IMG/VR virus record: IMGVR_UViG_3300001598_000039
Location: 1-64,000 of that record
DNA length: 64,000 bases
Source of the DNA: a virus
Lineage: Duplodnaviria > Heunggongvirae > Uroviricota > Caudoviricetes
Strand: one strand, 5' to 3'
Position numbers and translations under genes: made by a program. The notes beneath the pieces were generated by a model. That model had not been told where the DNA came from. It was given only the letters and a program-made list of their open reading frames with translations, and made no database searches. Every line of letters begins with the position of its first letter. The first letter of the stretch is position 1. Below, piece after piece: positions 35,965-61,487 of the stretch.

Positions 35965-35969
35965 CCAAG

Positions 35970-37249: not shown

Positions 37250-38032
37250 TCAGCTTGCGACTGAGAAGGCGAACTCCTTCTTCAGCTTAGGCAGCATGTC
37301 ACTAAGCACAAACTTTGTCCGCGAGTCTCGAGATGGGACTTTGAACTTCGATCCAGAGACATTGGCGTCATGCCTGTAGTAGATGAAGGCGCCAGGCCAG
37401 TTGAACTGTTTGAACTTGATGGCACATCCATAAGCGGCATTCACTTTCTTCAGGTGGTCAGCGACTTTGACGTGCGACATGGAGTATGGGTTGATGAAAC
37501 TAGTGTAAGGCAAGAAGCTGCTGTCTGCAATGAGTGACTGGAACAGTGCGATGTGGCCAACTGATCCGTAACTGTTCATGTAGTCATAGAGCTCTTTTGT
37601 CTTGGCGACGTAGACAAAGCCTGTAGTGTACCCGCATGCACCAAAGCCTTTCACTTCAGCAGCTTCAGCTTGCGCTTCAGCCGCAGCGCCACTCCAGATG
37701 AAGTCATCATCGTCGATGCGGGTTGCGATCATCTTTGACCCTGGCTGCCATCTTGCCTTCAGCTCTTGCTCAAGGCAGCTGTACCTGATGACGGATGCCT
37801 TGAATGGCATTGGAGCAAGAGCCTTCTGCAGAGCTTGGACTCGGTCTAGCGCCAGCCAATCATGAACCGCAAGAAGCAGCTCAAAGCTCTTGTTGGTCTG
37901 GTTGGCTAACGATGGAAGCAAGTTTGACTTAAGCAGCTGCAGGCGCTGCTTGTACATCTGGTCTGAGAGCAATGTGCCGACGTCGAATCCAAATGGCGTG
38001 CACAGGAACCTAGTTATGATGATGTGCTTCAT
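37250..38032 (-). CDS. Putative glycosyltransferase-like protein (260 aa)
   Basis: Gene context only; ATGA coupling to the GT2 gene. Confidence 0.4.
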   Translation of the reverse strand: MKHIIITRFLCTPFGFDVGTLLSDQMYKQRLQLLKSNLLPSLANQTNKSFELLLAVHDWLALDRVQALQKALAPMPFKASVIRYSCLEQELKARWQPGSKMIATRIDDDDFIWSGAAAEAQAEAAEVKGFGACGYTTGFVYVAKTKELYDYMNSYGSVGHIALFQSLIADSSFLPYTSFINPYSMSHVKVADHLKKVNAAYGCAIKFKQFNWPGAFIYYRHDANVSGSKFKVPSRDSRTKFVLSDMLPKLKKEFAFSVAS

Positions 38033-39546
38033 AGGTAGAAGTTGTTCTGCTTCAGGAGCTCAACCTTAGACTCGATGATCGCCAGCCTCTGCGCTTCAAC
38101 ACATGGCGTCTCATAGGACTCATGCATCAAGTCAGCGATGAGGTAGTAGACTGCTGCTTGGCGTGCTGTGTCGATCGCTGCATGTTGGCAGCTGTTCGGG
38201 TTGTCTCCAATGGTGTAGACGAAGAGCGGCTCATCCATGACAGCAAGCGACTTGCACTTGTCGTATGTCCTGAGGCTCCAGATGACGTCGTTGAACCTGA
38301 TGCGGTCTGGGATGAACTGCGGGCAAAGCTCCGTCTTAACACAACTAGTCGCCGGTTGGCATAGACGGACAACATCCTTGAGCGCATGCCCGTCAAATTT
38401 GGCAAGGCGCCGCACTCCATCACGGACATCATATCGGGCGCACTTCACCAAGTCAGGCGAACCGGATGCGATGATGAGCTTATGCAGATGCTCTAGAGCA
38501 GTGTCCGAGACATAGTAGTCGTCGCTGTCCAAGAACAACGTGTAGGCCGCTCCAGGAACATGCCTAAGTGCAACATTGCGTGCGCCTCCTCCATAGGCTT
38601 TCTTGTCTAGGAGCTCGTACTCGACTTTAGTTGGCCAGTTGGCTGCAATCTTCTTCAGCAACTCCGCCGTGCCATCAGTAGAAGCGTCGTCGACTAGCAC
38701 AACTTTGAAGTGCTTGAACGTCTGGCTCATGATGCTGTCTATGCACCGTTCCAGAAAGGCTTCGCTGTTGAAGGTCGGTATGATGATCCTGAAGAATGGA
38801 GAGTCATCACCAACCGCATACGGGACATTCAGCTTCCAGCCAACATAGGACTCAAGGTATCTGGCGCGCGACTGCATGCTCCTGTTGTCTGTGCAGAGGC
38901 CTCCATTTCTGCTGAACCTCAGGTTCTCCAGCAGCTTGACCCCGTCATTGGCGACTCTGACTAGCGGGACATTGTTCTCTTGCGCCCAAACAGCGGTTAT
39001 CTCGTCATCCCCAAAGTTCTTTGGCCTAGCAAGATACAATGACTTCCTCAAGCCAATCTCCTTAGGGCAGCACATCGCGACTCCCATGCCAACACGATGA
39101 CAAGGAAGGTCAGTGTCGTAGTCTAGCTGGAACAAGTGGACGGTTCGGTTCAAGAAGCTGATCCTGCCATTGGTGATGCCGTTGTAGACATGGCCATGGT
39201 ATGAGCAGATCGCCTTCCTCCCGTACTTGTCGACTTTGGCCTTCAAGCTTGCAATGTAGTTCGGCGGGTAGTCAATGTCGTCGTCCACAGTCGCGTAGTA
39301 GCCATCAAAGTCGCCGGCCCAGTACATCTTGTTGTTGCATCCAAGGTCTCTGATGCCAGTCTTTGCGTTCGCCAGGACAGTGATGATCTTCTTTGACTTA
39401 GGGAGCTCAGGAGGCACTTCGTCATAGCCATTCAGGCAGATGCAGAGCCTGTCGCACTGAGGCAAGAGCTCAGCTACAGCGTTCAGCAGTCCTTGCTTGC
39501 GCTGAGGTTGAGATGCGATCGCGACTGTGACTTCATTAGTGGCCAT
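38029..39546 (-). CDS. Two-domain glycosyltransferase (C-terminal GT2 domain)
   Basis: IIIPTFNSEAFLERCIDSIMSQTF...VVLVDDASTDGT. Confidence 0.75.
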   Translation of the reverse strand: MATNEVTVAIASQPQRKQGLLNAVAELLPQCDRLCICLNGYDEVPPELPKSKKIITVLANAKTGIRDLGCNNKMYWAGDFDGYYATVDDDIDYPPNYIASLKAKVDKYGRKAICSYHGHVYNGITNGRISFLNRTVHLFQLDYDTDLPCHRVGMGVAMCCPKEIGLRKSLYLARPKNFGDDEITAVWAQENNVPLVRVANDGVKLLENLRFSRNGGLCTDNRSMQSRARYLESYVGWKLNVPYAVGDDSPFFRIIIPTFNSEAFLERCIDSIMSQTFKHFKVVLVDDASTDGTAELLKKIAANWPTKVEYELLDKKAYGGGARNVALRHVPGAAYTLFLDSDDYYVSDTALEHLHKLIIASGSPDLVKCARYDVRDGVRRLAKFDGHALKDVVRLCQPATSCVKTELCPQFIPDRIRFNDVIWSLRTYDKCKSLAVMDEPLFVYTIGDNPNSCQHAAIDTARQAAVYYLIADLMHESYETPCVEAQRLAIIESKVELLKQNNFYL

Positions 39547-40207
39547 GGCAAGATATCCTGAAGAACTGGTTGTTGATGCTGAACTCCGATGTCAAGTAGC
39601 CAGGAGCAAAATGGCGCTTCCAGCAGGCATAGTTGAAGCTGAGCTGGTCACGATGGCTTCCTTTGATGAGCTCTGTTGCCCAAAGGTTGTCTAGCAGGAC
39701 GCAGTCCGAGTCATTGTGCCGCCGAAGCATGATGTTCGACTCAACCATCCCGAGGTCTTTTGGGTACCCTTCGGCTTGGTATCGTGCCATTTGGGATGAG
39801 ACTTCTTCCGCACTAGCCTTGCCAAGGTCAATGCATGCCTGCGCTTCGGCATAGATACAATGCCTGCTAGGATGGATCCTAGTGTAGAATGGTGTCCGCT
39901 CAAGGTTGTACTGCTTGATGAACTTTGAAAGATCACCAATGATAGATATATTCCCGTCTACCCAGATCGAAGTATCATACTCTCTTAGGTACCGGTGCGG
40001 ACAGATCTTCACAACACGCTGCTGCTTGACCAGCGAGAGGTACCGCAAGTCTTCTGGAATCTGGCGGAACTGCCAAACCGGCGCACATGCTGGTCTGTCG
40101 CTGAAGCAGATGAAGTCAATGCCTTCACACTCAGCTGGGACATGGAGCTTGTCATAGCCGCCAGTGATGCACGTGTAGCAGACGATGTTGTTCATGCCTT
40201 GTTCCAA
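39536..40207 (-). CDS. DUF616/TOD1-like putative glycosyltransferase; paralog of the gene at 59867
   Basis: NIVCYTCITGGYD signature. Confidence 0.5.
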   Translation of the reverse strand: MEQGMNNIVCYTCITGGYDKLHVPAECEGIDFICFSDRPACAPVWQFRQIPEDLRYLSLVKQQRVVKICPHRYLREYDTSIWVDGNISIIGDLSKFIKQYNLERTPFYTRIHPSRHCIYAEAQACIDLGKASAEEVSSQMARYQAEGYPKDLGMVESNIMLRRHNDSDCVLLDNLWATELIKGSHRDQLSFNYACWKRHFAPGYLTSEFSINNQFFRISCHGH

Positions 40208-41184
40208 ATCTGTTCACCGTACTGATCAAGGAACTTGAACAGGTCACACTTCCAGTTGTCCATATCACCATCGCCTTTGCGCAGCGACTCGGTGTTCTTG
40301 TCATAGCAGCTCAAAGCGGAGTTCAGCGGATAGTGTATTGGCTTGAACTCAGTCTTGATTGGGACAATTGTTGCATCGACAGGCACCACTCTGGTCATCT
40401 TTCCAGTGTACCAGTTGAGGATCATGTCAGCAAACTCAAACCGGCTTGCCATGTTAGGAATGCCTGTACAGCCACCACATATGTTCACAATGCCTCGCTT
40501 GCGCTGGTAGATTGCACGGAGAAGCATTGTGCAGAAGCGCTCGGTCGATGTTGGTATGGACATCTGGTCATCAGGAACAGCAAGCAGAGGGTTCTTTGTC
40601 CCAGGAACAAGCTCTCCAAGCGCTTTCTTCATGTTCCGGACGAACTTGTGGACAAAGGACTTAGACTTATGCTGGCCATAGAGCCACGACGTACGGGCAA
40701 TGCACCATCTTCCAGACGGCATCGCCAACCTTACGTTCTGCTCTCCTAAGAGCTTATGGAGGCCATACTGGTTCGTTGGGAACTCATCTCTGCGGAGCGT
40801 GTTGTCCTCGTGTTCGCTGAACTCAGAGAAGACATAGTCCGTCGAGACGTGGATGAGATGCGTCTTCTTGAACTCACAGGCTTCAGCAATGTACTTAGGC
40901 ACCAGCGCGTTCATGATGTAGGACTGGTGTTCACCATCTCCTTCCGCGGCAGTCGTGTCAGTGAACGCTGCACAGTTGATGCAGAAGTCATAGTGGATTG
41001 ACTTCATGAAGTACGCAGACAGAGCGTAAGGGACATCCAAAGAGATGTCCTTATGCGTCAGCCCGGTGACGACTCCAATCTTAGACTTTGGCGTAGCTGC
41101 CATCTTTGACAGCATCTCATGGACATCGTGCCCGAGCATCCCATCAGCACCAAGCACCAGTATGTCTAGCTTCTTGTTGAACAT
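40192..41184 (-). CDS. RmlD-like NAD(P)-dependent sugar reductase (dTDP-4-dehydrorhamnose reductase family)
   Basis: ILVLGADGMLG, VSTDYVF, YxxxK, RTSWLYG. Confidence 0.7.
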   Translation of the reverse strand: MFNKKLDILVLGADGMLGHDVHEMLSKMAATPKSKIGVVTGLTHKDISLDVPYALSAYFMKSIHYDFCINCAAFTDTTAAEGDGEHQSYIMNALVPKYIAEACEFKKTHLIHVSTDYVFSEFSEHEDNTLRRDEFPTNQYGLHKLLGEQNVRLAMPSGRWCIARTSWLYGQHKSKSFVHKFVRNMKKALGELVPGTKNPLLAVPDDQMSIPTSTERFCTMLLRAIYQRKRGIVNICGGCTGIPNMASRFEFADMILNWYTGKMTRVVPVDATIVPIKTEFKPIHYPLNSALSCYDKNTESLRKGDGDMDNWKCDLFKFLDQYGEQIWNKA

Positions 41185-41185
41185 G

Positions 41186-41521
41186 TCAGAACCTTATCAA
41201 CACATCTTGCGGCTTCAAGTCTCGCATCGAGCTTGCAAGCCATTCCTCAAGCTTCTCTTTCGACCCAAACCGACGTATGTCATTCTTCCGCGTCTCGCGT
41301 CGTTCCGCTGCAACCGTTCGGACAAGCCATCCAAGAGCATGCGGACTTTGTGCTTGCCATTCGCCAACGTTCGTCTCAAAGTAGCAGACAAGCGCATTTG
41401 GGTCGCACGTCTTCAGGTAGTCAATGAGCTTCTGCACAGTCAGCATGTTCTTGACACACCAAGCACGTTCTTCAGCCTTAGTCCTGAATGGCCAGCCGCG
41501 AGGCTTCTTGGCATCGCTCAT
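41186..41521 (-). CDS. Hypothetical protein (111 aa)
   Basis: Track ORF within the operon. Confidence 0.5.
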   Translation of the reverse strand: MSDAKKPRGWPFRTKAEERAWCVKNMLTVQKLIDYLKTCDPNALVCYFETNVGEWQAQSPHALGWLVRTVAAERRETRKNDIRRFGSKEKLEEWLASSMRDLKPQDVLIRF

Positions 41522-42249
41522 CGGTACCAGACCTTTCCTGTATCCTTGTAGGACTCTAACTGCTCTTCCATCCAGGTGTCATAGTCTGCACCATGCTCAT
41601 CCTTCTCTGACAGTAGGACGGTATCTTGGCCTTTAAGGAATGGCTCTAGCATCTTCGCCATGCCGCCGCCAGCAGCATAGTCGGCCTTAGCGGCTTCAAC
41701 AAACCGAGGCAAGACCGTCTTGATGCCAACACACACTTCGCTGTCTTTGTTGTATGCAGCACCACCAATGTAGTACTGGAAGATGTTCTTAGTCAAAGGC
41801 GTACCATCAACATATTCCGCCGGCGAGTAGAAGCCGTGCAAGAAGCCGCGAGGGATGAAGACTTTGTTTGCGACCTCGCCACTCAAAGCGAACAACTTCG
41901 CTGAACCGAACGTCTTTGAGTCTGGGCGTGCGTCGATGATGAAGTCATAAATCAGTCCAGAGACGCATTCGACGAACTTCGACTGGCAGTAGATGCCTTT
42001 CTGGGCATGCAAGCCACGGCAGACATTTGGGATGGACGTAGACCGATTGATCTGCCTAAGCCAATGGAGGTCAGCAAACCAGATCGGGATGTTGTCAACC
42101 GGCCATTGCCCAAAAGACTTCATGACCTCGGTGAACGAGCCTCTGCTGTCCGCATTTACCTTGGGCATGATAGAAAACACTTGCGACATCTCGTCGCCCT
42201 CAACAGCAGCGAACTCCGTGCAGTAGTGGATGAACTCAGAACTAGCCAT
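41518..42249 (-). CDS. RmlC-like cupin (dTDP-4-dehydrorhamnose 3,5-epimerase family)
   Basis: HAQKGIYCQSKFVECVSGLIYDFIIDARPDSKTFG...IPRGFLHGF; leaderless promoter GATGTACAAT inside the end of the NAD kinase gene. Confidence 0.65.
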   Translation of the reverse strand: MASSEFIHYCTEFAAVEGDEMSQVFSIMPKVNADSRGSFTEVMKSFGQWPVDNIPIWFADLHWLRQINRSTSIPNVCRGLHAQKGIYCQSKFVECVSGLIYDFIIDARPDSKTFGSAKLFALSGEVANKVFIPRGFLHGFYSPAEYVDGTPLTKNIFQYYIGGAAYNKDSEVCVGIKTVLPRFVEAAKADYAAGGGMAKMLEPFLKGQDTVLLSEKDEHGADYDTWMEEQLESYKDTGKVWYR

Positions 42250-42263
42250 GGCCATATTGTACA

Positions 42264-42986
42264 TCAGCCAAGGTACTGGTCATTCACCATCGTGCTGTTC
42301 CTGAGCTTGCGGCATTCTGGGCACATGAATGCGTCGTACCCAACGACAGACATGTTCTGGCAGGCGCTCTCTATGGTCACGCTCTGGCCAGCCTTAACCT
42401 TGACCTCTTTCACCAGCTTGTCGAATGTAAGCTGGACGTCAAAGTCTCGCCGGAAGATGACTTCTGCCTTGTCCTGCTGCCTGATGACCAAGTTGTTGAT
42501 GCCATACGTAGGAGCAATGAACCCTATGCCAATACCTTCGGTGAAGATGAGCCTAGCGACAGACTTGAAGTAGGCGTGGCTTCCAAGAGGAGTTGCAGCA
42601 ATGAGGCCATCTGCCATGACATTCTCCATGTACAGGCGGCCATTCACTTTGAGGTCAAACCTAAGGCATGACGTCAAGTCTAAGTTCTTCAAGGTGAGCT
42701 CAGACATAGCCACTTCAGACCAATCTAGCCCTCCAACCTGGCACCTGATGAGTGGCTGGACAGTGATCTTGAAGCTCGCATCAGCCTTTCCAGTGCCAAG
42801 GAAGTCATTCAAGATGTTGGCATGCTTTTGGCACAGCCCATAGTTCCTGATTGGAGCTATGGCTTTCTTGAAGTTCTTTGCTCTTGCCTTAGAGAGAAGC
42901 GTTCCGTCGCCGCCATATGCGATGGCAATGGACTTGTTCTGCTCTTCGAACTTCTTGATCAGGCTTTCTGCGGTATCACTCATCAT
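42264..42986 (-). CDS. NAD+ kinase
   Basis: GGDGT and DGLIAATPLGSHAY motifs. Confidence 0.75.
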   Translation of the reverse strand: MMSDTAESLIKKFEEQNKSIAIAYGGDGTLLSKARAKNFKKAIAPIRNYGLCQKHANILNDFLGTGKADASFKITVQPLIRCQVGGLDWSEVAMSELTLKNLDLTSCLRFDLKVNGRLYMENVMADGLIAATPLGSHAYFKSVARLIFTEGIGIGFIAPTYGINNLVIRQQDKAEVIFRRDFDVQLTFDKLVKEVKVKAGQSVTIESACQNMSVVGYDAFMCPECRKLRNSTMVNDQYLG

Positions 42987-43848
42987 CGCTGTAGTAGAGG
43001 AGGCTCATGTCATCGTGGTGCATCCAGCCTGTGATGTCTGTCTTGCAGTGCGCTCGGACATCAGCGACAGCCTTTGCTCCTAAGATCTGCTCAATCGCCT
43101 TCTCTAGGCGCTTGCAGTCGCATGGATCCGTCTTCAGGAACTCAATGCTCTCCCAGTCCGGCTTCTGGAGAGTGCCTTTAGCCGTAAGCCAACCAGCAAC
43201 ATATCCCCATTTGTAGCCCTTCTTGACTCCTTTGAAGGCCATAGGGAATTGCTCGTTCAGCGCCTTCGAGTCGATCGGACGAAGGACAATATGCCAGCCA
43301 TTCCTTGTAGGGACTAGGAACGCGTCGTCCGGTGTCTTTCCACAGGCGACTAGCGCATCCTTGACATAGTTGAAGACATCATCCTTGGTGACGCCATACA
43401 TCTCATCATTGTCCAGGTCGATGATCCACTTCTTGTCGCGGCTCTTGTGCATGCGGCACAGCGCTGACCTGAGGATGTGCTGGAACTTGATCGTAGGATT
43501 GTCCAAGCTGTCAAGGCAGAGCTTCAGCAAGTCAATCATGCAGTCTCTGACGGACCTAACCTGCGGCAAGATGTATGCGCGGGCATGATTTGACCTGCAG
43601 AGGTCGATGATAGTTGAGCGCTTCTTGTCATAGTACTCAACCGAAGACACCTCATACGTCTTGATCAGCCGGTTGGTCTCATTTGATCCATACTCAGTCC
43701 CGCGGACGTCTTTAGCACGGCGCAGGATCTGGATGATGTACCGGTCATAGGTGTCATTGATCTCCTTGCCGTCCTTCTTGCCACCGGTCTTGACTGCTTT
43801 CTTGAACTCAAGGTGTGGCCGAAACAAGTCAAAGTTGTCTATCGTCAT
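42976..43848 (-). CDS. Hypothetical protein (290 aa), leaderless (GGTGTAGAAT AGTTCC ATG)
   Basis: Track ORF. Confidence 0.6.
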   Translation of the reverse strand: MTIDNFDLFRPHLEFKKAVKTGGKKDGKEINDTYDRYIIQILRRAKDVRGTEYGSNETNRLIKTYEVSSVEYYDKKRSTIIDLCRSNHARAYILPQVRSVRDCMIDLLKLCLDSLDNPTIKFQHILRSALCRMHKSRDKKWIIDLDNDEMYGVTKDDVFNYVKDALVACGKTPDDAFLVPTRNGWHIVLRPIDSKALNEQFPMAFKGVKKGYKWGYVAGWLTAKGTLQKPDWESIEFLKTDPCDCKRLEKAIEQILGAKAVADVRAHCKTDITGWMHHDDMSLLYYSDDE

Positions 43849-43929
43849 GGAACTATTCTACACCGCCGGTGAGCAAAAGTTAAGCCGCACCCTTGCGAGC
43901 GCGGCTCTTTGATTCATAGAGGATAGCGC

Positions 43930-46597: not shown

Positions 46598-46837
46598 TCA
46601 GTTTCCCTTCTTCCTAGAGAATGTCTGCATCAGGAGTATGGCAATGCACCATACGAAGCATGAGGCGAAGTAGACTTCAACAACAAGCGCCAATGGCAGC
46701 CAAAGCGGCGAAAGTACCCAAATCCAAGGCCAGGTAAGTATACCTAACAGCTTGAAGGCAACAAAATGGACCGCAAGCAATGCGGAGAACAAGAAGTTTG
46801 GCCCAGTTATGCTCCATTTTGATGGTGTAGAATGCAT
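46598..46837 (-). CDS. 79-aa membrane protein with 2-3 TM helices (holin-like candidate), leaderless
   Basis: GGGTATAAT GTTGCT ATG; hydrophobic. Confidence 0.5.
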   Translation of the reverse strand: MHSTPSKWSITGPNFLFSALLAVHFVAFKLLGILTWPWIWVLSPLWLPLALVVEVYFASCFVWCIAILLMQTFSRKKGN

Positions 46838-46864
46838 AGCAACATTATACCCGTGGGCGATAGG

Positions 46865-46876
46865 CGAAGTAAATAA
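46865..46876 (+). promoter_or_regulatory. Class III late-like motif GCGAAGTAAATAA ahead of the fibre genes
   Basis: Consensus match; GAAGGG RBS before ATG 46907. Confidence 0.5.
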
Positions 46877-46906
46877 AAACACGCCACGAACGAAGGGCCT
46901 AACGAA

Positions 46907-49900
46907 CATGTCTACATACACAGATCTTCACAACAGAGTCAAAGAAACGCTCAACGTTGACTTCCACTCACGCATTACGCCCCAACGCGCTCGCTTCCTG
47001 AACGAGGAGAATGAGTACTGGGGAACTTTCTCCGGAACGCTCTCAGCGGATGACATCGACGTCAATGGCGGAACTCTCACCAATGTGAAGGTCAACCATG
47101 CGACACTTAGCGACGTCACACTGAAGACAAGCGACGGAACTTCGATCGACATGAACTCGCTGGCGAATGACGTCCAGCAGATCTCCGCTGTCGCTTACAC
47201 AGAGATCCCTAAGATCTACGGCGACATCCGCTACCTTTCAGGCCAGATCAGCTCATCTGACACTAAGTTCGAGGAGTTCAAAGCTGAGACGAACGGCAAG
47301 TTCGACTATGTGAGCGCAGCGATCAGCAACGAGGTCGCAGATAGAATCAGCGCCGATACAGCTATCTATGAGACGGTTGATTCAGTCTCATGCAAGCTCT
47401 CTACAGACTATGTTGCCCGCATCGCCACCGAGAAGAGCGAGCGAGTCGCCTTCGACAACCAGCTTGACACCAAGATCGACCAGCGCGTTGATGCGGAAGC
47501 AGCCGCTCGTGCAGCGGCTGACACAGAGCTTTCAGACAGCTTCCTGTCTGCGCTCTACCATGACAAGCACTACACGCTGAACCCAGTCGACACGACGGTC
47601 TACCCATACGTCACGAAGGAGTTCGCCGTCAACATCATCACCAACAAGCTTGCAGATGCGCTAGTCTATGACCAAGTCAATGGCAAGCAAGTCGGCAAGA
47701 TTGAAGGCGACGTTGATTCGTTCACTTTCACCGCTTTCGGCAACATTGATGAAGAGTACAAAGTTGGCCTTGTTCCTGGATATGGCTATGACTTCAAGAA
47801 CGGCGTCACCCAGCTCTACACAATCAATGGCTACCAGCTCGTCGTTGAGAAGGGCACAACCCTCACTTCAACTAAGATCACTCTCAAGCCAACGGCGACT
47901 GAGTACTATAAGCTCAATTGGGACAAGACTGCAGAAGAACGCCTGATGCTTGGCCGCATCACCGCTGCATACGCAAACCCAGCGAACAAGGTGCTCAGCG
48001 GCTTCGTCACGGTCAACACGACTGACTCGACGATGGCGGCATTCAACGTCCAGTACGCTGAGTTCAACAACACAACAAAGACGGACATCAGCGTCACCAA
48101 CAGCGACGTCATCACCTACAACGGTGACAACACCTTCGACTTCAAGAAGAACATCGCTGACTACAAGTACATCTCCCTCAGCAACACTTTGGCTGAAGGC
48201 GCTCCTATCTTCGGCAAGGTCTACGAGATCGACGTCGACAAGGAAGGCGAGACATTGAAGTCTGTCCGAGTCAAGCTTCTGGACAAGGTTGACAAGGTTG
48301 AGCTCACTCAGGAGAACGGCTTCAAGGCTGAAGTCTCTGGTGACCTCTCAAGCACCACTTACCTCAGTGCATCTGACAGCCTGGTGTTCCATGAGCGCAA
48401 GGAGGCGATCCGCTACAAGTACGGCTTCTATGATGAGACCGACACATCTTTCGCAACTCCAGTCGGCTACATCGCAATCACAGACCTCAACACCAAGATG
48501 TCTGATGACTTCGACTGCACGCTCAGTGCTGACTTGACGACGATCGAGAAGATCCCTGAGCTCAAGCGCAAGTTCGAGCTCACCCGTACGCCTGGCACAA
48601 GCAAATGGACAACCGGCCAGACGGTTGAGGGCAATGTCATCACCATCGAGTTCGACAAGGAAGCAAAGACCTTTGACTACACGATCGTCACAGCGGTCCA
48701 CCACAAAGTCATTCAGGCGAGCTTCATCACCAACAACACGACGGTGTTCGTCGATGAGGACTTCTCCGAGGACATCGCGAAGTCGCAAGCAGTTGTGCTT
48801 GACTTCACTGGTTCGCCGCATGAGCTGATCCCAGAGAAGACCTTCCGCGTCAACGTCGGAGAGAAGGTCACCGAAGTTGGCCCAACCTGGGTGTTTGACC
48901 CTAAGACGGCCGGTATGGATGTCGTCAAGATGGTTGTCCCCAACAAGAAGGCGGACGACATCAGCCGCGAAGAGGTCATCGTCACCAAGTTTGAGACTGG
49001 AACGCTTGGTGGAAGCGTCCAGGTGAAGTTCATTGATGAGCTTGGCCGTGACATCCGGGTCTACAATGAGAAGAGCCTCACTTATCGCGTCCCAACCAAC
49101 ACTTACACGACCTTCAAGATCCAAGAGGTCCAGCCTGACATCTTCTTGCTGGTGGACCTCAATGAGAACTCTCAGGAAGGCCGCCTCGCAAAGCTGCGCG
49201 AGGACCTCAACAATGAGATCAGTGCCCGCAAGGATGACTCTGAGTTCCTCTCAGCAGGACTTAGCGGACTCAGCGGCCAAGTTGAAGACCTCAGCGCCGA
49301 AGTCTCAGGCATCATTACGCGCGACCGCAAGGACCTTACGTACTTCGGTGAGCTCAACTATGTCGACGACACGGTTGACAAGCACCTGAGCTGCTTCCTC
49401 CGCAACCAGTCGCGTTGGTACGGCCAGGATGACTACAAGTTCCACTACGGCTTCATGTACCGCCTGTCAGCCGAGCAGTCGCACTTGATTGACTCGACTG
49501 GAGCAACTAACTACCTCGGCGTCAACGACTACATCATCTTCAACAAGGAGCGCACGCTCAGCGACGTCACCTTCAACGACATGGTGATGATCCGCGACGC
49601 CGCGGGTGAAGCTGCAGCAATGCAGAAGTGGGTGTGTGACAACTTCGTCACTCTCAGCGGTGGTAATGAGATCCGCGGCACAAATACATTCACTGGAGTA
49701 CTTTCAGCTAAGGATGCCAAAGTCGACTACCTCAGCGCGGCAAAGGTAGATGTGGTCAACCTCAGCGGCTCCTACTACGACTTCACCAGCGGAAAGATCC
49801 ACGACCTCGAGGTCACTGGAAAGCTGACAGTCCATGAGACTGAGACCGAAGCCGACATCGACAAGCTCTCAGCGAACACCGCAATGATCACTTCAGCTGG

Positions 49901-50042
49901 CATCAGCGTCGAAGTGGTTGGCAAGTCGACAGTCACATCTGCTGAAGTCACAAACCTCACCGCGACAGCAGCTAAGGTCACAAACCTAACGGCTGACTCG
50001 CTCAACAACATCTACATTGGAGACCGCAGCAAGACTCTCTAG
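46907..50042 (+). CDS. Large tail-fibre-like protein (1045 aa); ends at an in-frame TAG
   Basis: Track ORF from the internal ATG MSTYTDL; 25-aa LSxGLSGxxxDLSAEVSG-type repeats near the C-terminus. Confidence 0.7.
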
Positions 50043-51278
50043 AGCATCATCGACCTGTCAGTTGACAACCTCAGCGCGCAGATCAGTGCAACGTCATGTG
50101 ACCTCTCCAATTGGCTCAACAACCTTCAGCTCAGTGTTGGAGGAGTCAGCGCCATTGTTGATGCGCTGAGCACGGGGCTTTCAGGAAAGATCGATGCGCT
50201 TGAACTGAGCGTCAATGGAGTCTCCGGCTTGGTTGACCAACTCAGCGGAGAGCTCAATACGACATCTGGACTCCTCAGCAACCAAATCACCGCTCTCTGG
50301 GCGGATGTGAAAGGTGGAGTCAACTACAAAGGCCACCTCAAGTCCTACCGCGACGCTGAAGAGAAGACTGTTGACCTGTCAGCGATCTACCTCCACAGCT
50401 TCAGCGAGTACACACCAGGGACGCTCCTGAACAATGGCTGGATGTACTGCTTCACAACGGAAGAGGCTACGAAGAAGTACACGACGAAGGATGGCATTGC
50501 TCTTGAAGACCGTGACTACATCATCGTCCACAGCCATAGCGACCTCTCGGCAGTCCCAGTCTCAGCAATTGGCCGCTCGACGATTGACATCATCGACGCA
50601 GCTGATGATGACTATGTCCGCATCGACCTCCTCGCTAAGGTCTCCGCTGACCTGTCAACAGACTACAGCGGCAAGATCAACAACCTGACGCTCAGCGTCA
50701 GCGGCATCAGCGGAGTTGTCAACAGCCTTTCCGCTGGACTCTCCGGCAAGATCGACAGCCTCGAGCTGAGCGTCAATGGAGTCAGCGCGGTAGTCAATGC
50801 TCTCAGCAATGGCCTCTCTGTCAAGATTGACGCATTGGAGCTCAGTGCAAACGGCATCAGCAATGTGGTTGATGCGGTCAGCGCCGGGCTTTCGACGAAG
50901 ATCGATGCCCTTGAGCTCAGTGCAAATGGCATCAGTGGCATCATCGATGCCCTCAGCGCAGGATTGAGCGGCAAGATCGACGCGCTTGAGCTCAGCACAA
51001 ACGGCATCTCCGGCGTAGTTGATGCGTTGAGCGCCGGCCTCTCTGGAAAGATTGACCAGCTCGAGCTCAGCGTCGCAGGAATCAGCTCGCGGTTTGATGG
51101 CCTCAGCGACCACCTCTCATTCACCCTCAGCGGAATCAGCAGGGAGAAGGATGCGGTCCATGACATCAGCTCGGACAACCTGATCATCACTGACGAGCAG
51201 GTCTCTCCTGGACATGTCCACAACCGCTACTACATGACCTTCCTCAGCGGAACTTTGGTGCTGAACCCAATCGCATAA
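50043..51278 (+). CDS. Fibre segment in the same frame as 46907..50042, separated only by TAG 50040-50042. It carries a 25-aa (75-bp) tandem repeat array, and coding continues upstream of the first possible start (TTG 50229)
   Basis: Repeat unit ELSVNGVSAVVNALSNGLSVKIDAL x>=7; no in-frame ATG or GTG between the TAG and 50229. Confidence 0.55.
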   Translation, partial: SIIDLSVDNLSAQISATSCDLSNWLNNLQLSVGGVSAIVDALSTGLSGKIDALELSVNGVSGLVDQLSGELNTTSGLLSNQITALWADVKGGVNYKGHLKSYRDAEEKTVDLSAIYLHSFSEYTPGTLLNNGWMYCFTTEEATKKYTTKDGIALEDRDYIIVHSHSDLSAVPVSAIGRSTIDIIDAADDDYVRIDLLAKVSADLSTDYSGKINNLTLSVSGISGVVNSLSAGLSGKIDSLELSVNGVSAVVNALSNGLSVKIDALELSANGISNVVDAVSAGLSTKIDALELSANGISGIIDALSAGLSGKIDALELSTNGISGVVDALSAGLSGKIDQLELSVAGISSRFDGLSDHLSFTLSGISREKDAVHDISSDNLIITDEQVSPGHVHNRYYMTFLSGTLVLNPIA

Positions 51279-51316
51279 CCAGGGCAAACGACAGAATCTA
51301 AAAGGTAAGTAAGAAC

Positions 51317-54300: not shown

Positions 54301-54580
54301 ATCTACGACTTCGACTGCTGGTAACGGCACAAAGGTCACTATCAGCTTGCCAGTCGGAACGCTCCGCGTCGTAATCGCCTACCCAAGCCGCTTCACAAGC
54401 AACCTTGCATCCGTTACGGACAAGAACGGCATGGGAGCAAACGTCCGCAGCGCGTTCAATGCATCTCCAATCCTCCGCACAGTGAAGGACGCCGGCAACA
54501 GCGATGTTGAGTACAAAGTCTTCTACACAGACTTCGCATCTCCAACGGACAAGGCTAATGAGTACACCGCAACAATCTAA
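51317..54580 (+). CDS. Large tail-fibre-like protein (1087 aa) with the same 25-aa repeats at its N-terminus
   Basis: Track ORF; AAAAGGTAAG RBS. Confidence 0.7.
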   Translation: MSTYTQEQPNIFILNDKNIVHGLNGDTPLGHNPIPSLSLHVESYKTLSGMADGISAVVDSLSSGLSGKIDQLELSANGISGYVDKLELSASGISGIVNSLSAGLSGKIDALELSVKGVSAVVDALSAGLSGKIDAVQLSVAGLSNYTKDLALSATGLSDSISALALSVNGVSGVVDANKAASEQRDVYLSGVISNIISADLYALSGEVSAVSSALDLKIETLSTDLSDTVNKQFVHISGDTIGGSLSVSGTTTISSDLIAKKSLYVGTNVTTTEDVNTIVLGDRTSPAGRDSFVWNGNNGAVYDVTTHGTHGTFNINPEGGLNGLYIGQETLSTTFSKYQLTATMPTDLSDFTNGAGYALSADVPTKVSQVENDAAFLSAEDFDLSSDTTNHKIILVAGDKTYSIDTTDFIKSRMIYKAQITTNLSGEKVLRLWFSASETDFIDIVLTDLVKIYTAGYGISVDNEYRIHVTDVIAKKVDLDAVSGAVDTINNSTVPYLSGVISGTLSDITDLRLYADSLSNTTVIDPGEKYPTYKGTIPTLSSAIAKLRDEIGSGMTLAGHIQLARNTSSPYVPTYNDDTLSGIFRYFNLAEQGKLRSGNVYEVSITGLDYTSTTDLQNSFFMTKDATPIKLAHRDHIIIHSHDGGDIRLEDVANYMEVIPAVRYFEYYRLSGATDALCAAVDYLSGTPSNKVMISTDCTLEALSAEGYPYNTGDILIIKSTILPSIGTNPAKYQHTAYVYDDEVDDFKQMDDNYALDHVYVNNEFTYSGPWTKIGNIDKQSTDIISVATTQCSLTDMFKQIFSKKEAPTKTKTPAETLTVKNGTATLNSYYEAGTTITPALTANISRGCFTPWHVLSSGLDTYRQNPTGLSDFTLQITDTYGQSVTSSYTSADTRTGAQLTGETNNYNMLSTLTPVKLVIDKDYVATAKVTYNTSNFALDNEGETTTLKFDGTTLTKTSGTVIPYYKVFYGTKTSKAQDMSTCDSAYIRGTGMASTTSTAGNGTKVTISLPVGTLRVVIAYPSRFTSNLASVTDKNGMGANVRSAFNASPILRTVKDAGNSDVEYKVFYTDFASPTDKANEYTATI

Positions 54581-54593
54581 GGAACACTAAACT

Positions 54594-56668: not shown

Positions 56669-57307
56669 TCAGCGGATGGCTTGCGGTGATGGATCAGCTG
56701 CAACAAACCTGTCGTAGTTGGCATCAAAGAACTCTTTGTAGCCAGTCTTGGCGTCGCCATTTGGCGCGATGTTCTGGTAGTCTCCAAAGATTGTTGTGAT
56801 CGCACCGACTCTTTCGCTGTAGCCATCCAAATGCTGGACATTGGCGACTCGCACGCAGACGATAGTCCTTGTCAAGTATGGCCCAAGGCTAGATTTGAGC
56901 GCCCAAAGCTCGGAGTCTCTGAACCAAAGGTAGTCGTTCATGTCCAAGATGAAGACTAACGTATGCTTAGCTTCAATGAACTTATTGATTGTAGGCTCGA
57001 CCTCCTGCGTGAAGCTGTACAAGTTGTCCTTCTTAAGGTGACAGCGCCGCATGTTCAGCTTGAAGTTCAATGCCTGGATGTCACTCCCGTCCGTGACAAT
57101 AGTCCAATTGTTGGTGTTGCAGTAGAGTGACCTGAACTCACCGGGTGAGTCTAGAAAGAGCTTTACGGGCATCACTCCTGTCATGTAGTTAAGCACGCGG
57201 CTGCCATTGAACGGAGACTTGTAGACTTTGTACGGCTCAAGCCTAGACATGCTTAGGGCGTCATTTGCCCAGCATTCGGAGCCAAGAGGGAATATGAACT
57301 TAGACAT
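56669..57307 (-). CDS. Hypothetical protein (~212 aa) in the glycosyltransferase operon
   Basis: Start moved to MSKFIFPLGS, overlapping the upstream stop. Confidence 0.5.
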   Translation of the reverse strand: MSKFIFPLGSECWANDALSMSRLEPYKVYKSPFNGSRVLNYMTGVMPVKLFLDSPGEFRSLYCNTNNWTIVTDGSDIQALNFKLNMRRCHLKKDNLYSFTQEVEPTINKFIEAKHTLVFILDMNDYLWFRDSELWALKSSLGPYLTRTIVCVRVANVQHLDGYSERVGAITTIFGDYQNIAPNGDAKTGYKEFFDANYDRFVAADPSPQAIR

Positions 57308-59032: not shown

Positions 59033-59033
59033 G

Positions 59034-59864: not shown

Positions 59865-59866
59865 GG

Positions 59867-61466: not shown

Positions 61467-61487
61467 CAGGCATATTGTACGCGGCAC

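What the first reader, a model, noticed from the sequence alone, without database searches (positions are those of the whole stretch)
37250..42264. Sugar-nucleotide and glycosyltransferase module I (GT2, DUF616-like, RmlD-like, RmlC-like) adjacent to an NAD kinase
The phage encodes RmlC-like and RmlD-like enzymes without RmlA or RmlB. This suggests it diverts the host dTDP-4-keto-6-deoxyglucose pool. Three glycosyltransferase-like genes are coupled by ATGA overlaps. Together with module II (56669-61466) this gives roughly nine glycosyltransferase-like genes, which is far above typical phage content. Possible targets are virion proteins, DNA hypermodification, or remodelling of host surface glycans to exclude superinfection.
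Basis: partly seen in the sequence, partly recalled or inferred. Interest (0 to 1): 0.6.

Follow-up and report, generated by a model that had tools for sequence, protein, structure and literature searches.

The report
Variable sugar-coat gene island in gut jumbo phage
A giant uncultivated gut phage carries working-looking genes for the last two steps of rhamnose-sugar synthesis plus several sugar-attaching enzymes; this is one version of a gene island that differs between related phages, and what it coats (virus particle, host surface or DNA) is still unknown.

Summary
On the minus strand, 37250-42986 holds tightly coupled genes: NAD-kinase-like, RmlC-like, a 111-aa ORF, RmlD-like, a TOD1/MUCI70 (DUF616) glycosyltransferase, a two-domain transferase and a PF11316 transferase.

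New findings:
- RmlC-like and RmlD-like keep all catalytic residues. The RmlC-like model has the RmlC fold.
- RmlC-like is widely conserved in a lineage of uncultivated gut or rumen jumbo phages, many of which read TAG as glutamine. It sits beside a highly variable glycan island.
- Some relatives carry RmlA+RmlB+RmlC, and one carries all four enzymes. The pathway assignment is therefore sound.
- No RmlA or RmlB lies in this 64-kb window, but the rest of the genome is unseen.
- The "GT2" gene matches both domains of Pasteurella heparosan synthase, in swapped order.
- In recoded relatives, in-frame TAG is about 7-fold enriched in island genes over neighbouring replication genes, as in lysin and fibre genes. 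This suggests late expression.
- In relatives the NAD kinase usually sits among NAD-salvage genes, so its link to RmlD is uncertain.

The glycan's target is unresolved. I favour virion proteins, then host envelope glycans. This is a new member of a known kind and moderately interesting.

The parts
43855..43907 (-). Terminator-like hairpin (43907-43882) followed by a promoter-like site (43883-43855). Probable 5' boundary of the transcription unit that contains module I.
   Evidence: stem of 11 pairs with 7 GC pairs and a T-rich tail, then TTAACT-17-TAGAAT. This is a consensus match only, not proof of function.
42976..43848 (-). p290: a conserved lineage protein of unknown function and first gene of the unit. 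Probably not a glycan enzyme.
   Evidence: phrog_14949 at 4e-15. 119 homologue clusters on contigs up to 408 kb. AlphaFold2 pLDDT 90.5 but no PDB fold match. Overlaps the NADK-like start by 8-11 nt. Distant homologues occur only in phages of Bacteroidota.
42264..42986 (-). NAD-kinase-like protein, 240 aa.
   Evidence: GGDGT and DGLIAATPLGSHAY motifs. 17 NCBIfam NAD-kinase models match, all below their cut-offs. PDB NAD kinases match at about 6e-5. A family of at least 176 clusters exists. It is 43% identical to a homologue in L034. In relatives it sits in NAD-salvage contexts.
41518..42264 (-). RmlC-like dTDP-4-keto-6-deoxyhexose 3,5-epimerase, 248 aa, with a lineage-specific helical C-terminal appendage.
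   Evidence: PF00908 at 4.9e-26. Catalytic H86, K96, Y164 and D222, and the substrate-binding residues, are invariant in 39 homologues. AlphaFold2 pLDDT 90.1, and the top Foldseek hits are all RmlC (E about 1e-15, TM about 0.8 on the target).
41186..41521 (-). orf111: a small protein of unknown function between RmlC and RmlD.
   Evidence: No family in any library. Its homologues in L008 and L020 lie elsewhere, next to the ligase or p164, so it is probably not part of the pathway.
40192..41184 (-). RmlD-like NAD(P)H-dependent dTDP-4-dehydrorhamnose reductase, 330 aa.
   Evidence: PF04321 at 1.6e-40. TIGR01214 at 2.7e-39, below the equivalog cut-off. PDB RmlD at 8.5e-18. GADGMLG, STDYVF and YGLHK motifs are present. 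Orthologues at 33-37% identity occur in L002, L034 and L025.
39536..40207 (-). TOD1/MUCI70 (DUF616)-type glycosyltransferase-like protein, 219-223 aa. It is the transferase most often paired with RmlC-like in relatives.
   Evidence: PF04765 at 5.1e-18 and phrog_26101 at 2.6e-18. Homologues at 51-60% identity lie next to RmlC-like in L002, L011 (two copies), L019, L020 and L027.
38029..39546 (-). Two-domain glycosyltransferase, 505 aa: an N-terminal KfiA/GT45-like domain (about residues 7-157) and a C-terminal GT2 domain (about 247-381).
   Evidence: Both domains match Pasteurella heparosan synthase B (8viw), at 1.1e-11 and 2.8e-9, in swapped order. KfiA (5z8b) matches at 1.1e-8 and chondroitin synthase at 1e-12. 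DDD and DSDD motifs are kept. PF00535 at 6.9e-28. TuaG is the best NCBIfam match.
37250..38032 (-). PF11316 ('putative rhamnosyl transferase') protein, 260 aa. Last gene of the unit.
   Evidence: PF11316 at 7.6e-10, above the gathering cut-off but covering only part of the profile. No PDB match. Found only in the window and in L001 among the loci examined.
56669..61487 (-). Module II: six co-directional genes next to the NAD-dependent ligase. They are 56669-57433 (no family), 57300-58136 (GT11), 58133-59032 (DUF4422), 59034-59912 (DUF6492), 59867-60661 (weak GT2) and 60654-61487 (DUF4422).
   Evidence: The 59867-60661 product is 33% identical to the N-terminal half of the roughly 500-aa protein that lies directly beside RmlC-like in L005 and L006. 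None has a transmembrane segment.
46809..56612 (+). Context: three large Ser/Thr-rich, fibre-like proteins of 1489 aa (one in-frame TAG), 1087 aa and 672 aa, lying between modules I and II. They are candidate acceptors.
   Evidence: Weak tail-protein PHROG hits. Ser+Thr is 18.6-22.6%, against 13.7% for the window. The N-terminus of the 1489-aa protein is conserved in relatives. Homologues lie beside the island or p164 in L009/L026, L011, L022, L027 and L029.

Best explanation
Module I is this phage's version of a variable glycan-synthesis island found across a lineage of uncultivated gut or rumen jumbo phages.

Shown or strongly supported:
- RmlC-like and RmlD-like are intact enzymes of the dTDP-6-deoxyhexose branch.
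- Together they would convert dTDP-4-keto-6-deoxy-D-glucose to dTDP-L-rhamnose.
- The precursor must come from RmlA and RmlB encoded elsewhere. That is probably the host, because none is in this window.

Inferred:
- Three soluble GT-A-type transferases, with four catalytic domains in all, use this sugar and host UDP-sugars in the cytoplasm. They are the TOD1/MUCI70-like protein, the heparosan-synthase-like GT45+GT2 protein and the PF11316 protein.
- Their product would be a rhamnose-containing oligosaccharide or short polymer.
- Module II would add further residues.
- The genes are probably expressed late.
- The most likely acceptor is virion surface protein, for example the neighbouring Ser/Thr-rich fibre-like proteins. 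This would give each phage variant its own glycan coat.
- The NAD-kinase-like gene probably belongs to the phage's general NAD(P) metabolism. At most it helps supply NADPH to RmlD.

Sub-confidences: enzymology of the RmlC/RmlD step about 0.8; late expression about 0.55; virion acceptor about 0.35-0.4. The overall confidence given is for the whole statement, including the acceptor.
For: Family and fold assignments:
-.
- The catalytic residues of RmlC are invariant across 39 lineage homologues.

Pathway context in relatives:
- L025 has RmlC, then RmlB (GDP_Man_Dehyd 3e-50), RmlA (NTP_transferase 4e-66), a 158-aa ORF and RmlD.
- L029 has RmlA (5e-72), RmlB (1e-58) and RmlC.
- RmlC+RmlD pairs occur in L002 and L034.

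The island is hypervariable between the same flanking genes (PD-(D/E)XK exonuclease on one side, p290/p65/p164 on the other):
- It holds GT92, GT11, LicD, IspD, CTP_transf_3, methyltransferases, DUF4422, UDP-glucose dehydrogenase, Stealth_CR2, GT32-like, GT-D-like and ATP-grasp TupA genes in different relatives.

No membrane components:
- No module I or II protein has a transmembrane segment.
- No flippase, polymerase or priming transferase is present.

TAG distribution in recoded relatives:
- Island genes carry 84 in-frame TAG in 7632 codons. Adjacent replication-type genes carry 20 in 12151 (odds ratio 6.75, p = 1.5e-18).
- Lysin and fibre-like genes are also TAG-rich, while the ligase and metallophosphoesterase genes have none and p290 has none or one.
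- This matches the late-gene recoding model of bioRxiv 10.1101/2021.08.26.457843.

Fibre-like genes:
- They co-vary in the same neighbourhood.
- They are Ser/Thr-rich.
Against: - No glycan, acceptor or activity has been observed. The acceptor is inferred only from gene position, solubility and codon usage.
- In this window the island genes contain no TAG at all. Only the lysin and the 1489-aa fibre-like gene have one each. The late-expression argument therefore rests on relatives.
- TAG enrichment could instead reflect faster evolution of island genes.
- Module I is co-oriented with replication-type genes and possibly co-transcribed with them. That would fit early or middle expression.
- Gene sets with Stealth, LicD and cytidylyltransferases in relatives look like capsule or teichoic-acid machinery, which favours a host-envelope target.
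- RmlC-like occurs without RmlD or any transferase nearby in some relatives (L022, L026), and this is unexplained.
- NCBIfam equivalog cut-offs for rmlC and rmlD are not reached, so the exact sugar could differ.
Confidence: 0.4

Rival explanations
1. Host-envelope remodelling. The soluble transferases add rhamnose and other residues to the host's own lipid-linked capsule, O-antigen or wall-polysaccharide intermediates at the cytoplasmic face of the membrane. The host's export machinery then displays the altered glycan. This would mask receptors against superinfection, or stop progeny being lost on cell debris.
For: - The gene content of the island in relatives is typical of capsule or teichoic-acid-type polymers: Stealth_CR2, LicD, IspD, CTP_transf_3, UDP-glucose dehydrogenase and ATP-grasp TupA.
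- The best characterised relatives of the GT2 domain act on lipid-linked or capsule polymers: TuaG, PglI, heparosan and chondroitin synthases.
- Published reading of similar jumbo-phage clusters favours surface polysaccharide diversification (PMC7824862).
- Peripheral transferases of such pathways normally lack transmembrane segments, so one search does not argue against this.
- The host is probably a member of Bacteroidota. From my own knowledge, their capsules govern phage susceptibility.
Against: - No priming transferase, flippase, polymerase, ABC exporter or GtrA/GtrC-like membrane protein is in the window or in any island examined.
- The phage would have to match each host's pathway exactly.
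- Late-class codon usage in relatives leaves little time for exported glycan to protect against superinfection.
- No lysogeny genes were seen in the window.
Confidence: 0.3
2. DNA hypermodification. The transferases glycosylate a hydroxylated base in phage DNA, with RmlC and RmlD supplying an unusual donor sugar. This would resemble the epimerase-plus-transferase pairs that decorate 5hmC in metagenomic phages.
For: - The RmlC-like gene is embedded among replication and repair genes: PD-(D/E)XK exonuclease, NAD-dependent ligase, ThyX, a metallophosphoesterase, and PIF1 or DnaB in relatives.
- Epimerase-plus-transferase pairs that modify DNA are documented (bioRxiv 10.1101/2023.12.21.572611).
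- Group transfer to DNA occurs late, before packaging (PMC13326640 abstract), so late expression is compatible.
Against: - No cytosine C5-methyltransferase, TET/JBP dioxygenase, ThyA-type hydroxymethylase or 5hoC synthase was found among about 70 window ORFs or in the annotated flanks of relatives.
- Islands of up to 13 genes with Stealth, LicD, methyltransferases and cytidylyltransferases are far more complex than known DNA glycans.
- No rhamnosylated DNA base is known to me.
Confidence: 0.08
3. Same enzymes, different chemistry. The RmlC-like and RmlD-like pair makes a 6-deoxyhexose other than L-rhamnose, or uses a nucleotide other than dTDP. The lone RmlC-like gene of many relatives would then have a role outside the classical four-step pathway.
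For: - Both proteins score well below the NCBIfam equivalog cut-offs: 75.7 against 155.75 for rmlC, and 135 against 224 for rmlD.
- RmlC-like has a lineage-specific insertion of about 40 aa and an invariant C-terminal WY motif.
- RmlC-like stands alone in L022 and L026.
- The RmlC fold also houses mono-epimerases and GDP-heptose epimerases.
Against: - The best sequence and fold matches are all genuine dTDP RmlC enzymes. Mono-epimerases and GDP-heptose enzymes score much lower.
- All four catalytic residues needed for double epimerisation are invariant.
- RmlA-type thymidylyltransferase and RmlB-type dehydratase genes are adjacent in L025 and L029.
Confidence: 0.12
4. The module is bacterial DNA, through mis-assembly or contamination, or an inactive passenger.
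For: The closest functional relatives of every enzyme are bacterial. Composition is unremarkable.
Against: - The same gene order occurs on an independent contig that is 98% identical (L001).
- The flanking genes are syntenic in more than ten phage contigs of 26-52% GC.
- GC content is uniform across the window.
- Catalytic residues are conserved.
- Overlapping start and stop codons couple the genes to lineage-specific phage genes.
Confidence: 0.02

Closest known systems
Bacterial dTDP-L-rhamnose pathway (RmlA, RmlB, RmlC, RmlD)
   Same: - RmlC fold and catalytic His, Lys, Tyr and Asp residues.
- RmlD Rossmann motif and Thr/Tyr/Lys triad.
- Relatives L025 and L029 carry RmlA and RmlB beside the same RmlC-like gene.
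   Different: - Only the last two steps are present in this window.
- Both proteins fall below the NCBIfam equivalog cut-offs.
- RmlC-like has an extra helical appendage of about 60 aa ending in an invariant WY motif.
- RmlD-like is 30-40 aa longer than bacterial RmlD.
phAPEC8-like coliphages (Phapecoctavirus), with an adjacent RmlC/RmlD pair
   Same: A lytic phage carries dTDP-4-dehydrorhamnose 3,5-epimerase and reductase genes side by side, with no RmlA or RmlB annotated next to them.
   Different: - Only 27-37% identity.
- Different phage lineage and host.
- Here the pair is joined to three or four glycosyltransferase domains and lies inside a hypervariable island.
- As far as I know, the function of the phAPEC8 pair is also untested.
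Polysaccharide ('LPS') gene clusters of jumbo cyanophages such as P-SSM2 and S-SCSM2R
   Same: Large, variable clusters of epimerases or dehydratases, cupin sugar isomerases, nucleotidyltransferases and many paralogous glycosyltransferases in big phage genomes. S-SCSM2R has 13 glycosyltransferases and an RmlC (PMC7824862; PMC12801897).
   Different: - Different phage group and habitat (gut, TAG-recoded).
- The island here is anchored on a conserved RmlC-like gene beside replication genes.
- The function of the cyanophage clusters is itself only inferred.
Virion glycosylation in mycobacteriophages (Freeman et al. 2023, cited in PMC12619734 and PMC12801897)
   Same: Phage-encoded soluble glycosyltransferases would modify structural proteins in the cytoplasm. 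The number and type of transferases vary between related phages.
   Different: - There the transferases sit in the structural operon and the glycans have been shown by mass spectrometry.
- Here the position is beside replication genes and fibre-like genes, and no glycan has been observed.
- No sugar-nucleotide enzymes were reported there, as far as I recall.
Pasteurella multocida heparosan synthase PmHS2, E. coli KfiA and chondroitin synthase K4CP
   Same: The 505-aa protein matches both catalytic domains, with DXD-type motifs kept, and lacks transmembrane segments like these class II synthases.
   Different: - Domain order is swapped (GT45-like first).
- Identity is only about 25-30%.
- No UDP-glucose dehydrogenase is in the window, though L002 and L011 have one.
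- Polymerising activity is untested.
Giant-virus glycan machinery (Mimivirus UDP-L-rhamnose pathway and fibril glycosylation; chlorovirus hyaluronan synthase). From my own knowledge, not checked here.
   Same: A virus encodes its own 6-deoxyhexose synthesis and many glycosyltransferases to build glycans on its particle or on the host surface.
   Different: Those are eukaryotic viruses with a UDP-based pathway and a bifunctional epimerase/reductase. There is no sequence relationship to this module.

Membership tests
RmlC (dTDP-4-dehydrorhamnose 3,5-epimerase, PF00908 / TIGR01221) | Score above the Pfam gathering threshold | tested here: met
   91.9 bits against 27
RmlC (dTDP-4-dehydrorhamnose 3,5-epimerase, PF00908 / TIGR01221) | Score above the NCBIfam equivalog cut-off | tested here: not met
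   75.7 bits against 155.75
RmlC (dTDP-4-dehydrorhamnose 3,5-epimerase, PF00908 / TIGR01221) | Catalytic His63/Asp170 dyad, Lys73 and Tyr133 (Salmonella numbering), plus the RGxFxE and QxNxS substrate motifs | tested here: met
   H86, K96, Y164, D222, R41, F44, Q71, N73 and S75 are invariant in 39 homologues. They align with 1dzr.
RmlC (dTDP-4-dehydrorhamnose 3,5-epimerase, PF00908 / TIGR01221) | RmlC jelly-roll fold | tested here: met
   AlphaFold2 pLDDT 90.1. The top 25 Foldseek PDB hits are RmlC enzymes or proteins engineered from them, with E down to 9e-16 and TM about 0.8 on the target.
RmlC (dTDP-4-dehydrorhamnose 3,5-epimerase, PF00908 / TIGR01221) | Genomic association with RmlA, RmlB and RmlD | tested here: met
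   RmlD is 1 kb away in the window. RmlA and RmlB are adjacent in relatives L025 and L029. Neither is in the window itself.
RmlC (dTDP-4-dehydrorhamnose 3,5-epimerase, PF00908 / TIGR01221) | Double epimerisation of dTDP-4-keto-6-deoxy-D-glucose | not testable with these tools
   Needs an enzyme assay.
RmlD (dTDP-4-dehydrorhamnose reductase, PF04321 / TIGR01214) | Pfam gathering threshold; NCBIfam equivalog cut-off | tested here: inconclusive
   Pfam is met, 139.4 bits against 27. TIGR01214 is not met, 135 against 224. PDB RmlD matches at 8.5e-18.
RmlD (dTDP-4-dehydrorhamnose reductase, PF04321 / TIGR01214) | GxxGxxG dinucleotide motif and the Thr / Tyr-x3-Lys catalytic triad | tested here: met
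   GADGMLG, STDYVF and YGLHK are read directly from the translation and aligned with 1vl0.
GT2 glycosyltransferase (PF00535) | Pfam threshold and DXD motifs | tested here: met
   98.1 bits against 23.3. VDDAS and DSDDY align with PmHS2.
Two-domain glycosaminoglycan synthase (PmHS2 / KfiA+KfiC type) | Both a GT45-type and a GT2-type catalytic domain in one soluble protein | tested here: met
   Residues 7-157 match PmHS2 302-455 (1.1e-11) and KfiA (1.1e-8). Residues 247-373 match PmHS2 32-155 (2.8e-9). No transmembrane segment.
Two-domain glycosaminoglycan synthase (PmHS2 / KfiA+KfiC type) | Same domain order, UDP-GlcA supply, and alternating polymerisation | tested here: not met
   Domain order is reversed. 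No UDP-glucose dehydrogenase is in the window. Polymerisation cannot be tested here.
TOD1/MUCI70 (PF04765, formerly DUF616) | Pfam threshold | tested here: met
   65.9 bits against 21.4, covering profile positions 128-288 of 314. No solved structure matches by sequence.
PF11316 'putative rhamnosyl transferase' | Pfam threshold; demonstrated rhamnosyl transfer | tested here: inconclusive
   39.1 bits against 23, but only residues 21-141 are matched. The family name is itself a prediction. No PDB match.
NAD kinase (PF01513 / PF20143) | Curated score cut-offs | tested here: not met
   NAD_kinase_C scores 23.2 against 23.7. All 17 NCBIfam NAD-kinase models match below their cut-offs, the best at 43 bits against 220.
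NAD kinase (PF01513 / PF20143) | GGDG motif and the glycine-rich DGxxxxTPTGSTAY motif | tested here: met
   AYGGDGTLL and ADGLIAATPLGSHAY align with 7mh7. The Asn of the 'NE/ND' motif is Ser here.
Phage seroconversion cassette (GtrA/GtrB/GtrC type) | Membrane flippase, bactoprenol glucosyltransferase and a polytopic serotype-specific transferase | tested here: not met
   No transmembrane segment in any module protein. There are only weak GtrB-like PHROG hits to the generic GT2 domain.
Phage DNA glycosylation systems | A neighbouring enzyme that creates the acceptor base (ThyA-type hydroxymethylase or 5hoC synthase, or C5-methyltransferase plus 5mYOX) | tested here: not met
   None among about 70 window ORFs. 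Only a ThyX-type gene is present, at 63477-63965. The rest of the genome was not seen.

The most novel reading that the evidence does not exclude
A whole lineage of gut and rumen jumbo phages (contigs up to about 400 kb, many reading TAG as glutamine) builds strain-specific complex glycans on its own virions late in infection. The glycans contain rhamnose and possibly glycosaminoglycan-like units. The genes lie in a hypervariable island anchored on a phage-specific RmlC. The coat would serve as camouflage or as an adhesin in the animal gut. This would be a bacterial-virus counterpart of the glycosylated fibrils of giant viruses.
Probability: 0.15. Interest if true: 0.8.

Novelty: new member of a known kind. 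Interest (0 to 1): 0.45.

Why it matters
Phage-encoded glycan synthesis is known in jumbo cyanophages, mycobacteriophages and giant viruses. It is almost unexplored in the huge phages of animal guts.

This locus gives a defined and testable system:
- a conserved RmlC-like anchor;
- a cassette that changes between relatives, from no genes to 13, and that includes a full rhamnose pathway in some;
- a codon-usage signal for expression timing.

If the glycans decorate virions, they would affect host range, immune recognition and mucus binding of abundant gut phages. If they remodel host capsules, they would add a new layer to phage-Bacteroidota interactions. In either case the soluble rhamnose enzymes and transferases are candidates for glyco-engineering.

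Tried and rejected
- Megablast of the module against 50,697 phage records found nothing. tblastn of the 1087-aa protein also found nothing.
- Exact look-up of the RmlD-like protein failed, because the window differs by a few residues from the recorded contig.
- A single-protein scan of IMG/VR with RmlD-like found nothing.
- PADLOC gave no defence-system match for any module protein.
- PDB sequence searches gave nothing for the 1087-aa and 672-aa proteins, p290, the PF11316 protein or the TOD1-like protein.
- p290 folded with high confidence but had no Foldseek match in the PDB. My guess that it is a primase-polymerase was therefore not supported and I dropped it.
- The genome-contig scan with the 505-aa transferase returned only generic GT2-domain matches from many phyla. 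None covered the GT45-like domain, so it gave no clue to donor or host.
- No tRNA, and so no suppressor tRNA, is in the window.
- Re-calling ORFs with TAG, TGA or TAA read as sense codons was uninformative at 52% GC, because spurious antisense ORFs appear.
- I considered NADK-RmlD functional coupling as a main point. I downgraded it after finding NADK homologues in NAD-salvage contexts away from RmlC.
- I first described RmlC-like as a universal core gene. I softened this after an unbiased check through p290 homologues. One locus has EXO-RmlC 10 kb away (L185). The other has RmlD-like next to p290 but no RmlC within 10 kb (L186).
- The paper of Pyle et al. could not be fetched by its journal DOI, so I used the preprint instead.

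Full report
**What is there**

The interval 37250-42986 holds seven co-directional minus-strand genes. In the order they are transcribed:

| Coordinates | Product | Main evidence |
|---|---|---|
| 42264-42986 | NAD-kinase-like | see below |
| 41518-42264 | RmlC-like | PF00908, 4.9e-26 |
| 41186-41521 | 111-aa ORF | no family |
| 40192-41184 | RmlD-like | PF04321, 1.6e-40 |
| 39536-40207 | TOD1/MUCI70 (ex-DUF616) protein | 5.1e-18 |
| 38029-39546 | 505-aa transferase | PF00535, 6.9e-28 |
| 37250-38032 | PF11316 'putative rhamnosyl transferase' protein | 7.6e-10 |

The junctions are ATGA overlaps (GT505/GT260, RmlD/TOD1, RmlC/orf111), an 11-nt overlap (TOD1/GT505) and a 1-nt overlap (NADK/RmlC). 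A strong hairpin with a T-tract and a promoter-like site lie at 43907-43855. They suggest the unit starts one gene further upstream, with the conserved 290-aa protein p290.

**What kind of genome this is**

- The window has no near match in 50,697 phage records.
- It encodes PARP+WGR, DnaJ, a MoxR ATPase with a VWA metallopeptidase, a TROVE-like protein, an NAD-dependent ligase and ThyX.
- A contig that is 98% identical exists in a Logan assembly. An 87.7-kb JGI contig carries identical p290 and NADK-like proteins.
- Homologues of RmlC-like and p290 lie on contigs of 100-408 kb from gut and rumen-type metagenomes. One record is named as a pig gut metagenome.
- These relatives span 26-52% GC.
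- Many relatives read TAG as glutamine. The L002 RmlC-like gene has six or seven in-frame TAG codons, and these are Q in the recorded protein.
- In the window, TAG ends only 3 of 49 genes. It occurs in frame once in the endolysin-like gene and once in the 1489-aa fibre-like gene. The public gene calls read through both.
- Distant p290 homologues are found only in phages of Bacteroidota: Cellulophaga phi17:2, the Lak phages and a crAss-like phage. The host is therefore probably a member of that phylum. This is an inference.

**The sugar-nucleotide enzymes**

RmlC-like:
- It aligns with Salmonella RmlC.
- His63, Lys73, Tyr133 and Asp170, and the RGxFxE and QxNxS substrate motifs, are all conserved. 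They are invariant across 39 lineage homologues.
- Its AlphaFold2 model (pLDDT 90.1) has the RmlC jelly-roll. The best Foldseek hits are all RmlC.
- It differs from bacterial RmlC by three extra helices and an invariant C-terminal Trp-Tyr.

RmlD-like:
- It keeps the dinucleotide motif and the Thr/Tyr/Lys triad.

Both proteins fall below the NCBIfam equivalog cut-offs. They are divergent members of their families rather than textbook orthologues.

**The decisive context comes from relatives**

I used exact-protein look-ups, IMG/VR and JGI scans, local tblastn and Pfam. In about 17 non-redundant loci, the same RmlC-like gene sits between a PD-(D/E)XK exonuclease and a block of conserved genes: p290, p306, p65, a metallophosphoesterase, p164 and then the ligase. 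The cargo between them varies:

| Cargo beside RmlC-like | Loci |
|---|---|
| Nothing | L022, L026 |
| One transferase of about 500 aa | L006 |
| TOD1-like plus others | L019, L020, L011, L027 |
| GT-D-like plus a GT505-like protein | L008 |
| Twelve genes: GT92, GT11, LicD, IspD, CTP_transf_3, methyltransferases, DUF4422 | L005 |
| RmlC+RmlD plus TOD1, GT2 and UDP-glucose dehydrogenase | L002 |
| RmlC+RmlD | L034 |
| RmlA+RmlB+RmlC plus GT92-like and a cytidylyltransferase | L029 |
| RmlC-RmlB-RmlA-x-RmlD | L025 |

RmlA-type thymidylyltransferase (4e-66 and 5e-72) and RmlB-type dehydratase (3e-50 and 1e-58) lie next to the lineage's RmlC-like gene. This makes the dTDP-6-deoxyhexose assignment firm.

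The window itself has no RmlA or RmlB among about 70 scanned ORFs. The idea that it uses the host's dTDP-4-keto-6-deoxyglucose is therefore reasonable, but it is unproven for the whole genome.

I made an unbiased check through two p290 homologues. One locus has EXO-RmlC 10 kb away. The other has an RmlD-like gene abutting p290 and no RmlC within 10 kb. RmlC-like is therefore widespread in the lineage, but not shown to be universal.

**The transferases**

- The 505-aa 'GT2' is really two enzymes in one.
  - Residues 7-157 match the GT45-type alpha-GlcNAc-transferase domain of Pasteurella heparosan synthase B (1.1e-11) and E. coli KfiA (1.1e-8).
  - Residues 247-373 match the GT2 domain of the same synthase (2.8e-9) and of chondroitin synthase.
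  - The DXD-type motifs are kept, but the domain order is reversed.
- The TOD1/MUCI70-like protein is the transferase most often found beside RmlC-like in relatives. That makes it my candidate for the rhamnose-using enzyme. This is an inference.
- Module II (56669-61487) adds GT11, two DUF4422 proteins, DUF6492 and a weak GT2. The weak GT2 is homologous to the transferase that abuts RmlC-like in L005 and L006.
- None of the module I or II proteins has a transmembrane segment. No flippase, polymerase, exporter or priming transferase is present.

**Timing**

- In five TAG-recoded relatives, in-frame TAG codons are concentrated in island genes: 84 in 7632 codons.
- They are rare in the adjacent replication-type genes: 20 in 12151 codons (odds ratio 6.75, p = 1.5e-18).
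- Lysin and fibre-like genes are also TAG-rich. The ligase and metallophosphoesterase genes have none, and p290 has none or at most one.
- In the published model, recoded codons mark late structural and lysis genes, because these cannot be translated before the code switch (bioRxiv 10.1101/2021.08.26.457843).
- By that logic the glycan genes are late genes.
- Caveats: the window's own island genes have no TAG, and faster evolution of island genes could also raise TAG density.

**The NAD kinase**

- The 240-aa protein has the GGDG and glycine-rich NAD-kinase motifs. It matches only NAD kinases, but weakly.
- Such genes are rare in deposited phage genomes: 10 of 50,697 records.
- They form a family of at least 176 clusters in metagenomes.
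- In relatives the homologue lies among nicotinamidase-like, NAPRTase, nucleoside-deoxyribosyltransferase-like, AAA_28 and NADAR genes. That is a context of NAD salvage.
- Its 1-nt overlap with RmlC here, and its presence 4 kb from RmlC-RmlD in L034 (43% identity), allow a role in supplying NADPH to RmlD. General NAD(P) metabolism is the better-supported reading.

**What the glycan is attached to**

This cannot be settled from sequence.

For a virion target:
- all the enzymes are soluble;
- relatives show late-class codon usage;
- the island shares a hypervariable neighbourhood with large Ser/Thr-rich fibre-like genes (18.6-22.6% Ser+Thr against 13.7% for the window);
- there is precedent in mycobacteriophages and, from my own knowledge, in giant viruses.

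For a host-envelope target:
- the cargo in relatives looks like capsule or teichoic-acid machinery (Stealth, LicD, cytidylyltransferases);
- this is the usual published reading of jumbo-phage clusters (PMC7824862).

For DNA:
- there is only the position among replication genes and the precedent of epimerase-plus-transferase pairs on 5hmC;
- no acceptor-base enzyme was found.

My estimates are about 0.35-0.4 for virion, 0.3 for host envelope and 0.08 for DNA. The remainder is unknown.

**Verdict**

This is a real, intact and well-organised glycan module. It is one allele of a lineage-wide variable island. It is a new member of a known kind, phage-encoded glycan synthesis. It has some fresh features: an RmlC-like anchor with its own appendage, a swapped heparosan-synthase-like transferase, and a codon-usage clue to timing. 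Interest is moderate.

Noticed in passing
window 33790-33792 and 50040-50042: Each site is a single in-frame TAG, one inside the endolysin-like gene (33445-34731) and one inside the 1489-aa fibre-like gene (46809-51278). Public gene calls read through both. TAG ends only 3 of 49 genes, and no tRNA is in the window. The phage seems to use TAG as a sense codon at very low density, and only in late-type genes.
   Followed up: partly
L002, L005, L006, L019, L020 (relatives): In-frame TAG is about 7-fold enriched in glycan-island genes over neighbouring replication genes. The ligase and metallophosphoesterase genes are TAG-free in every locus, and p290 has none or at most one. This could serve as a general marker of expression class in this lineage.
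   Followed up: yes
window 42976-43848 (p290): A lineage-wide protein (119 homologue clusters) with a confident AlphaFold2 model (pLDDT 90.5, pTM 0.85) but no Foldseek match in the PDB. Distant homologues occur only in phages of Bacteroidota (Cellulophaga phi17:2, Lak, crAss-like). Function unknown.
   Followed up: partly
window 35970-37247 (+): A 425-aa protein with weak similarity to the Ntn-hydrolase C45 and choloylglycine (bile-salt) hydrolase families (NCBIfam 2.7e-5 and 9e-4). Among the loci examined it is present only in this phage and its 98% twin. It converges on the end of module I with a 2-nt gap.
   Followed up: no
L183 2902-7801; L184 3856-4377; L034 12787-16935: Homologues of the NAD-kinase-like gene sit beside isochorismatase (nicotinamidase-like), NAPRTase, Nuc_deoxyri_tr2, AAA_28 and NADAR genes. 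This suggests a phage NAD(P) salvage or reconstitution cluster, possibly a counter to NAD-depleting host defences.
   Followed up: partly
window 16333-17562, 23054-25845, 26912-28093, 30487-32187: PARP catalytic domain with a WGR domain, a MoxR-type AAA ATPase with a VWA/DUF2201 metallopeptidase, a full-length DnaJ, and a TROVE-like DUF2828/DUF7788 protein. This is an unusual set of eukaryote-like or chaperone functions for a phage.
   Followed up: no
window 35157-36494 (-): The ORF list gives a 445-aa exonuclease, but the first 190 codons or so overlap the opposite-strand 425-aa gene and look non-coding. Public gene calls and homologues support a 257-aa PD-(D/E)XK exonuclease starting at 35930.
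   Followed up: yes
window 4000-12000: This stretch has no ORF over 232 aa but many 50-100-aa plus-strand ORFs, with positive AT skew. It looks like a block of small genes, possibly early ones. No tRNA genes are present.
   Followed up: no
L022 12510-14290; L185 1386-2228 and 5340-6002: IS605-type OrfB/TnpB (Cas12f-like TNB) genes and a Y1 transposase lie inside related jumbo-phage contigs, close to the RmlC-like neighbourhood.
   Followed up: no
window (ORF set of alignment A2): Among the remaining ORFs, one each matches YqeY (3e-36), BspA-type LRR_5 (1e-23), the InlB B-repeat Flg_new_2 (1e-13) and DUF3310 (2.5e-14). I did not map these matches to individual ORFs.
   Followed up: no
L186 4426-5769 and 9021-10798: A relative carries a Ser/Thr protein kinase and CoaBC-like flavoprotein/DFP genes. 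It also has an RmlD-like gene overlapping the start of its p290 homologue by 4 nt, with no RmlC-like gene within 10 kb.
   Followed up: no
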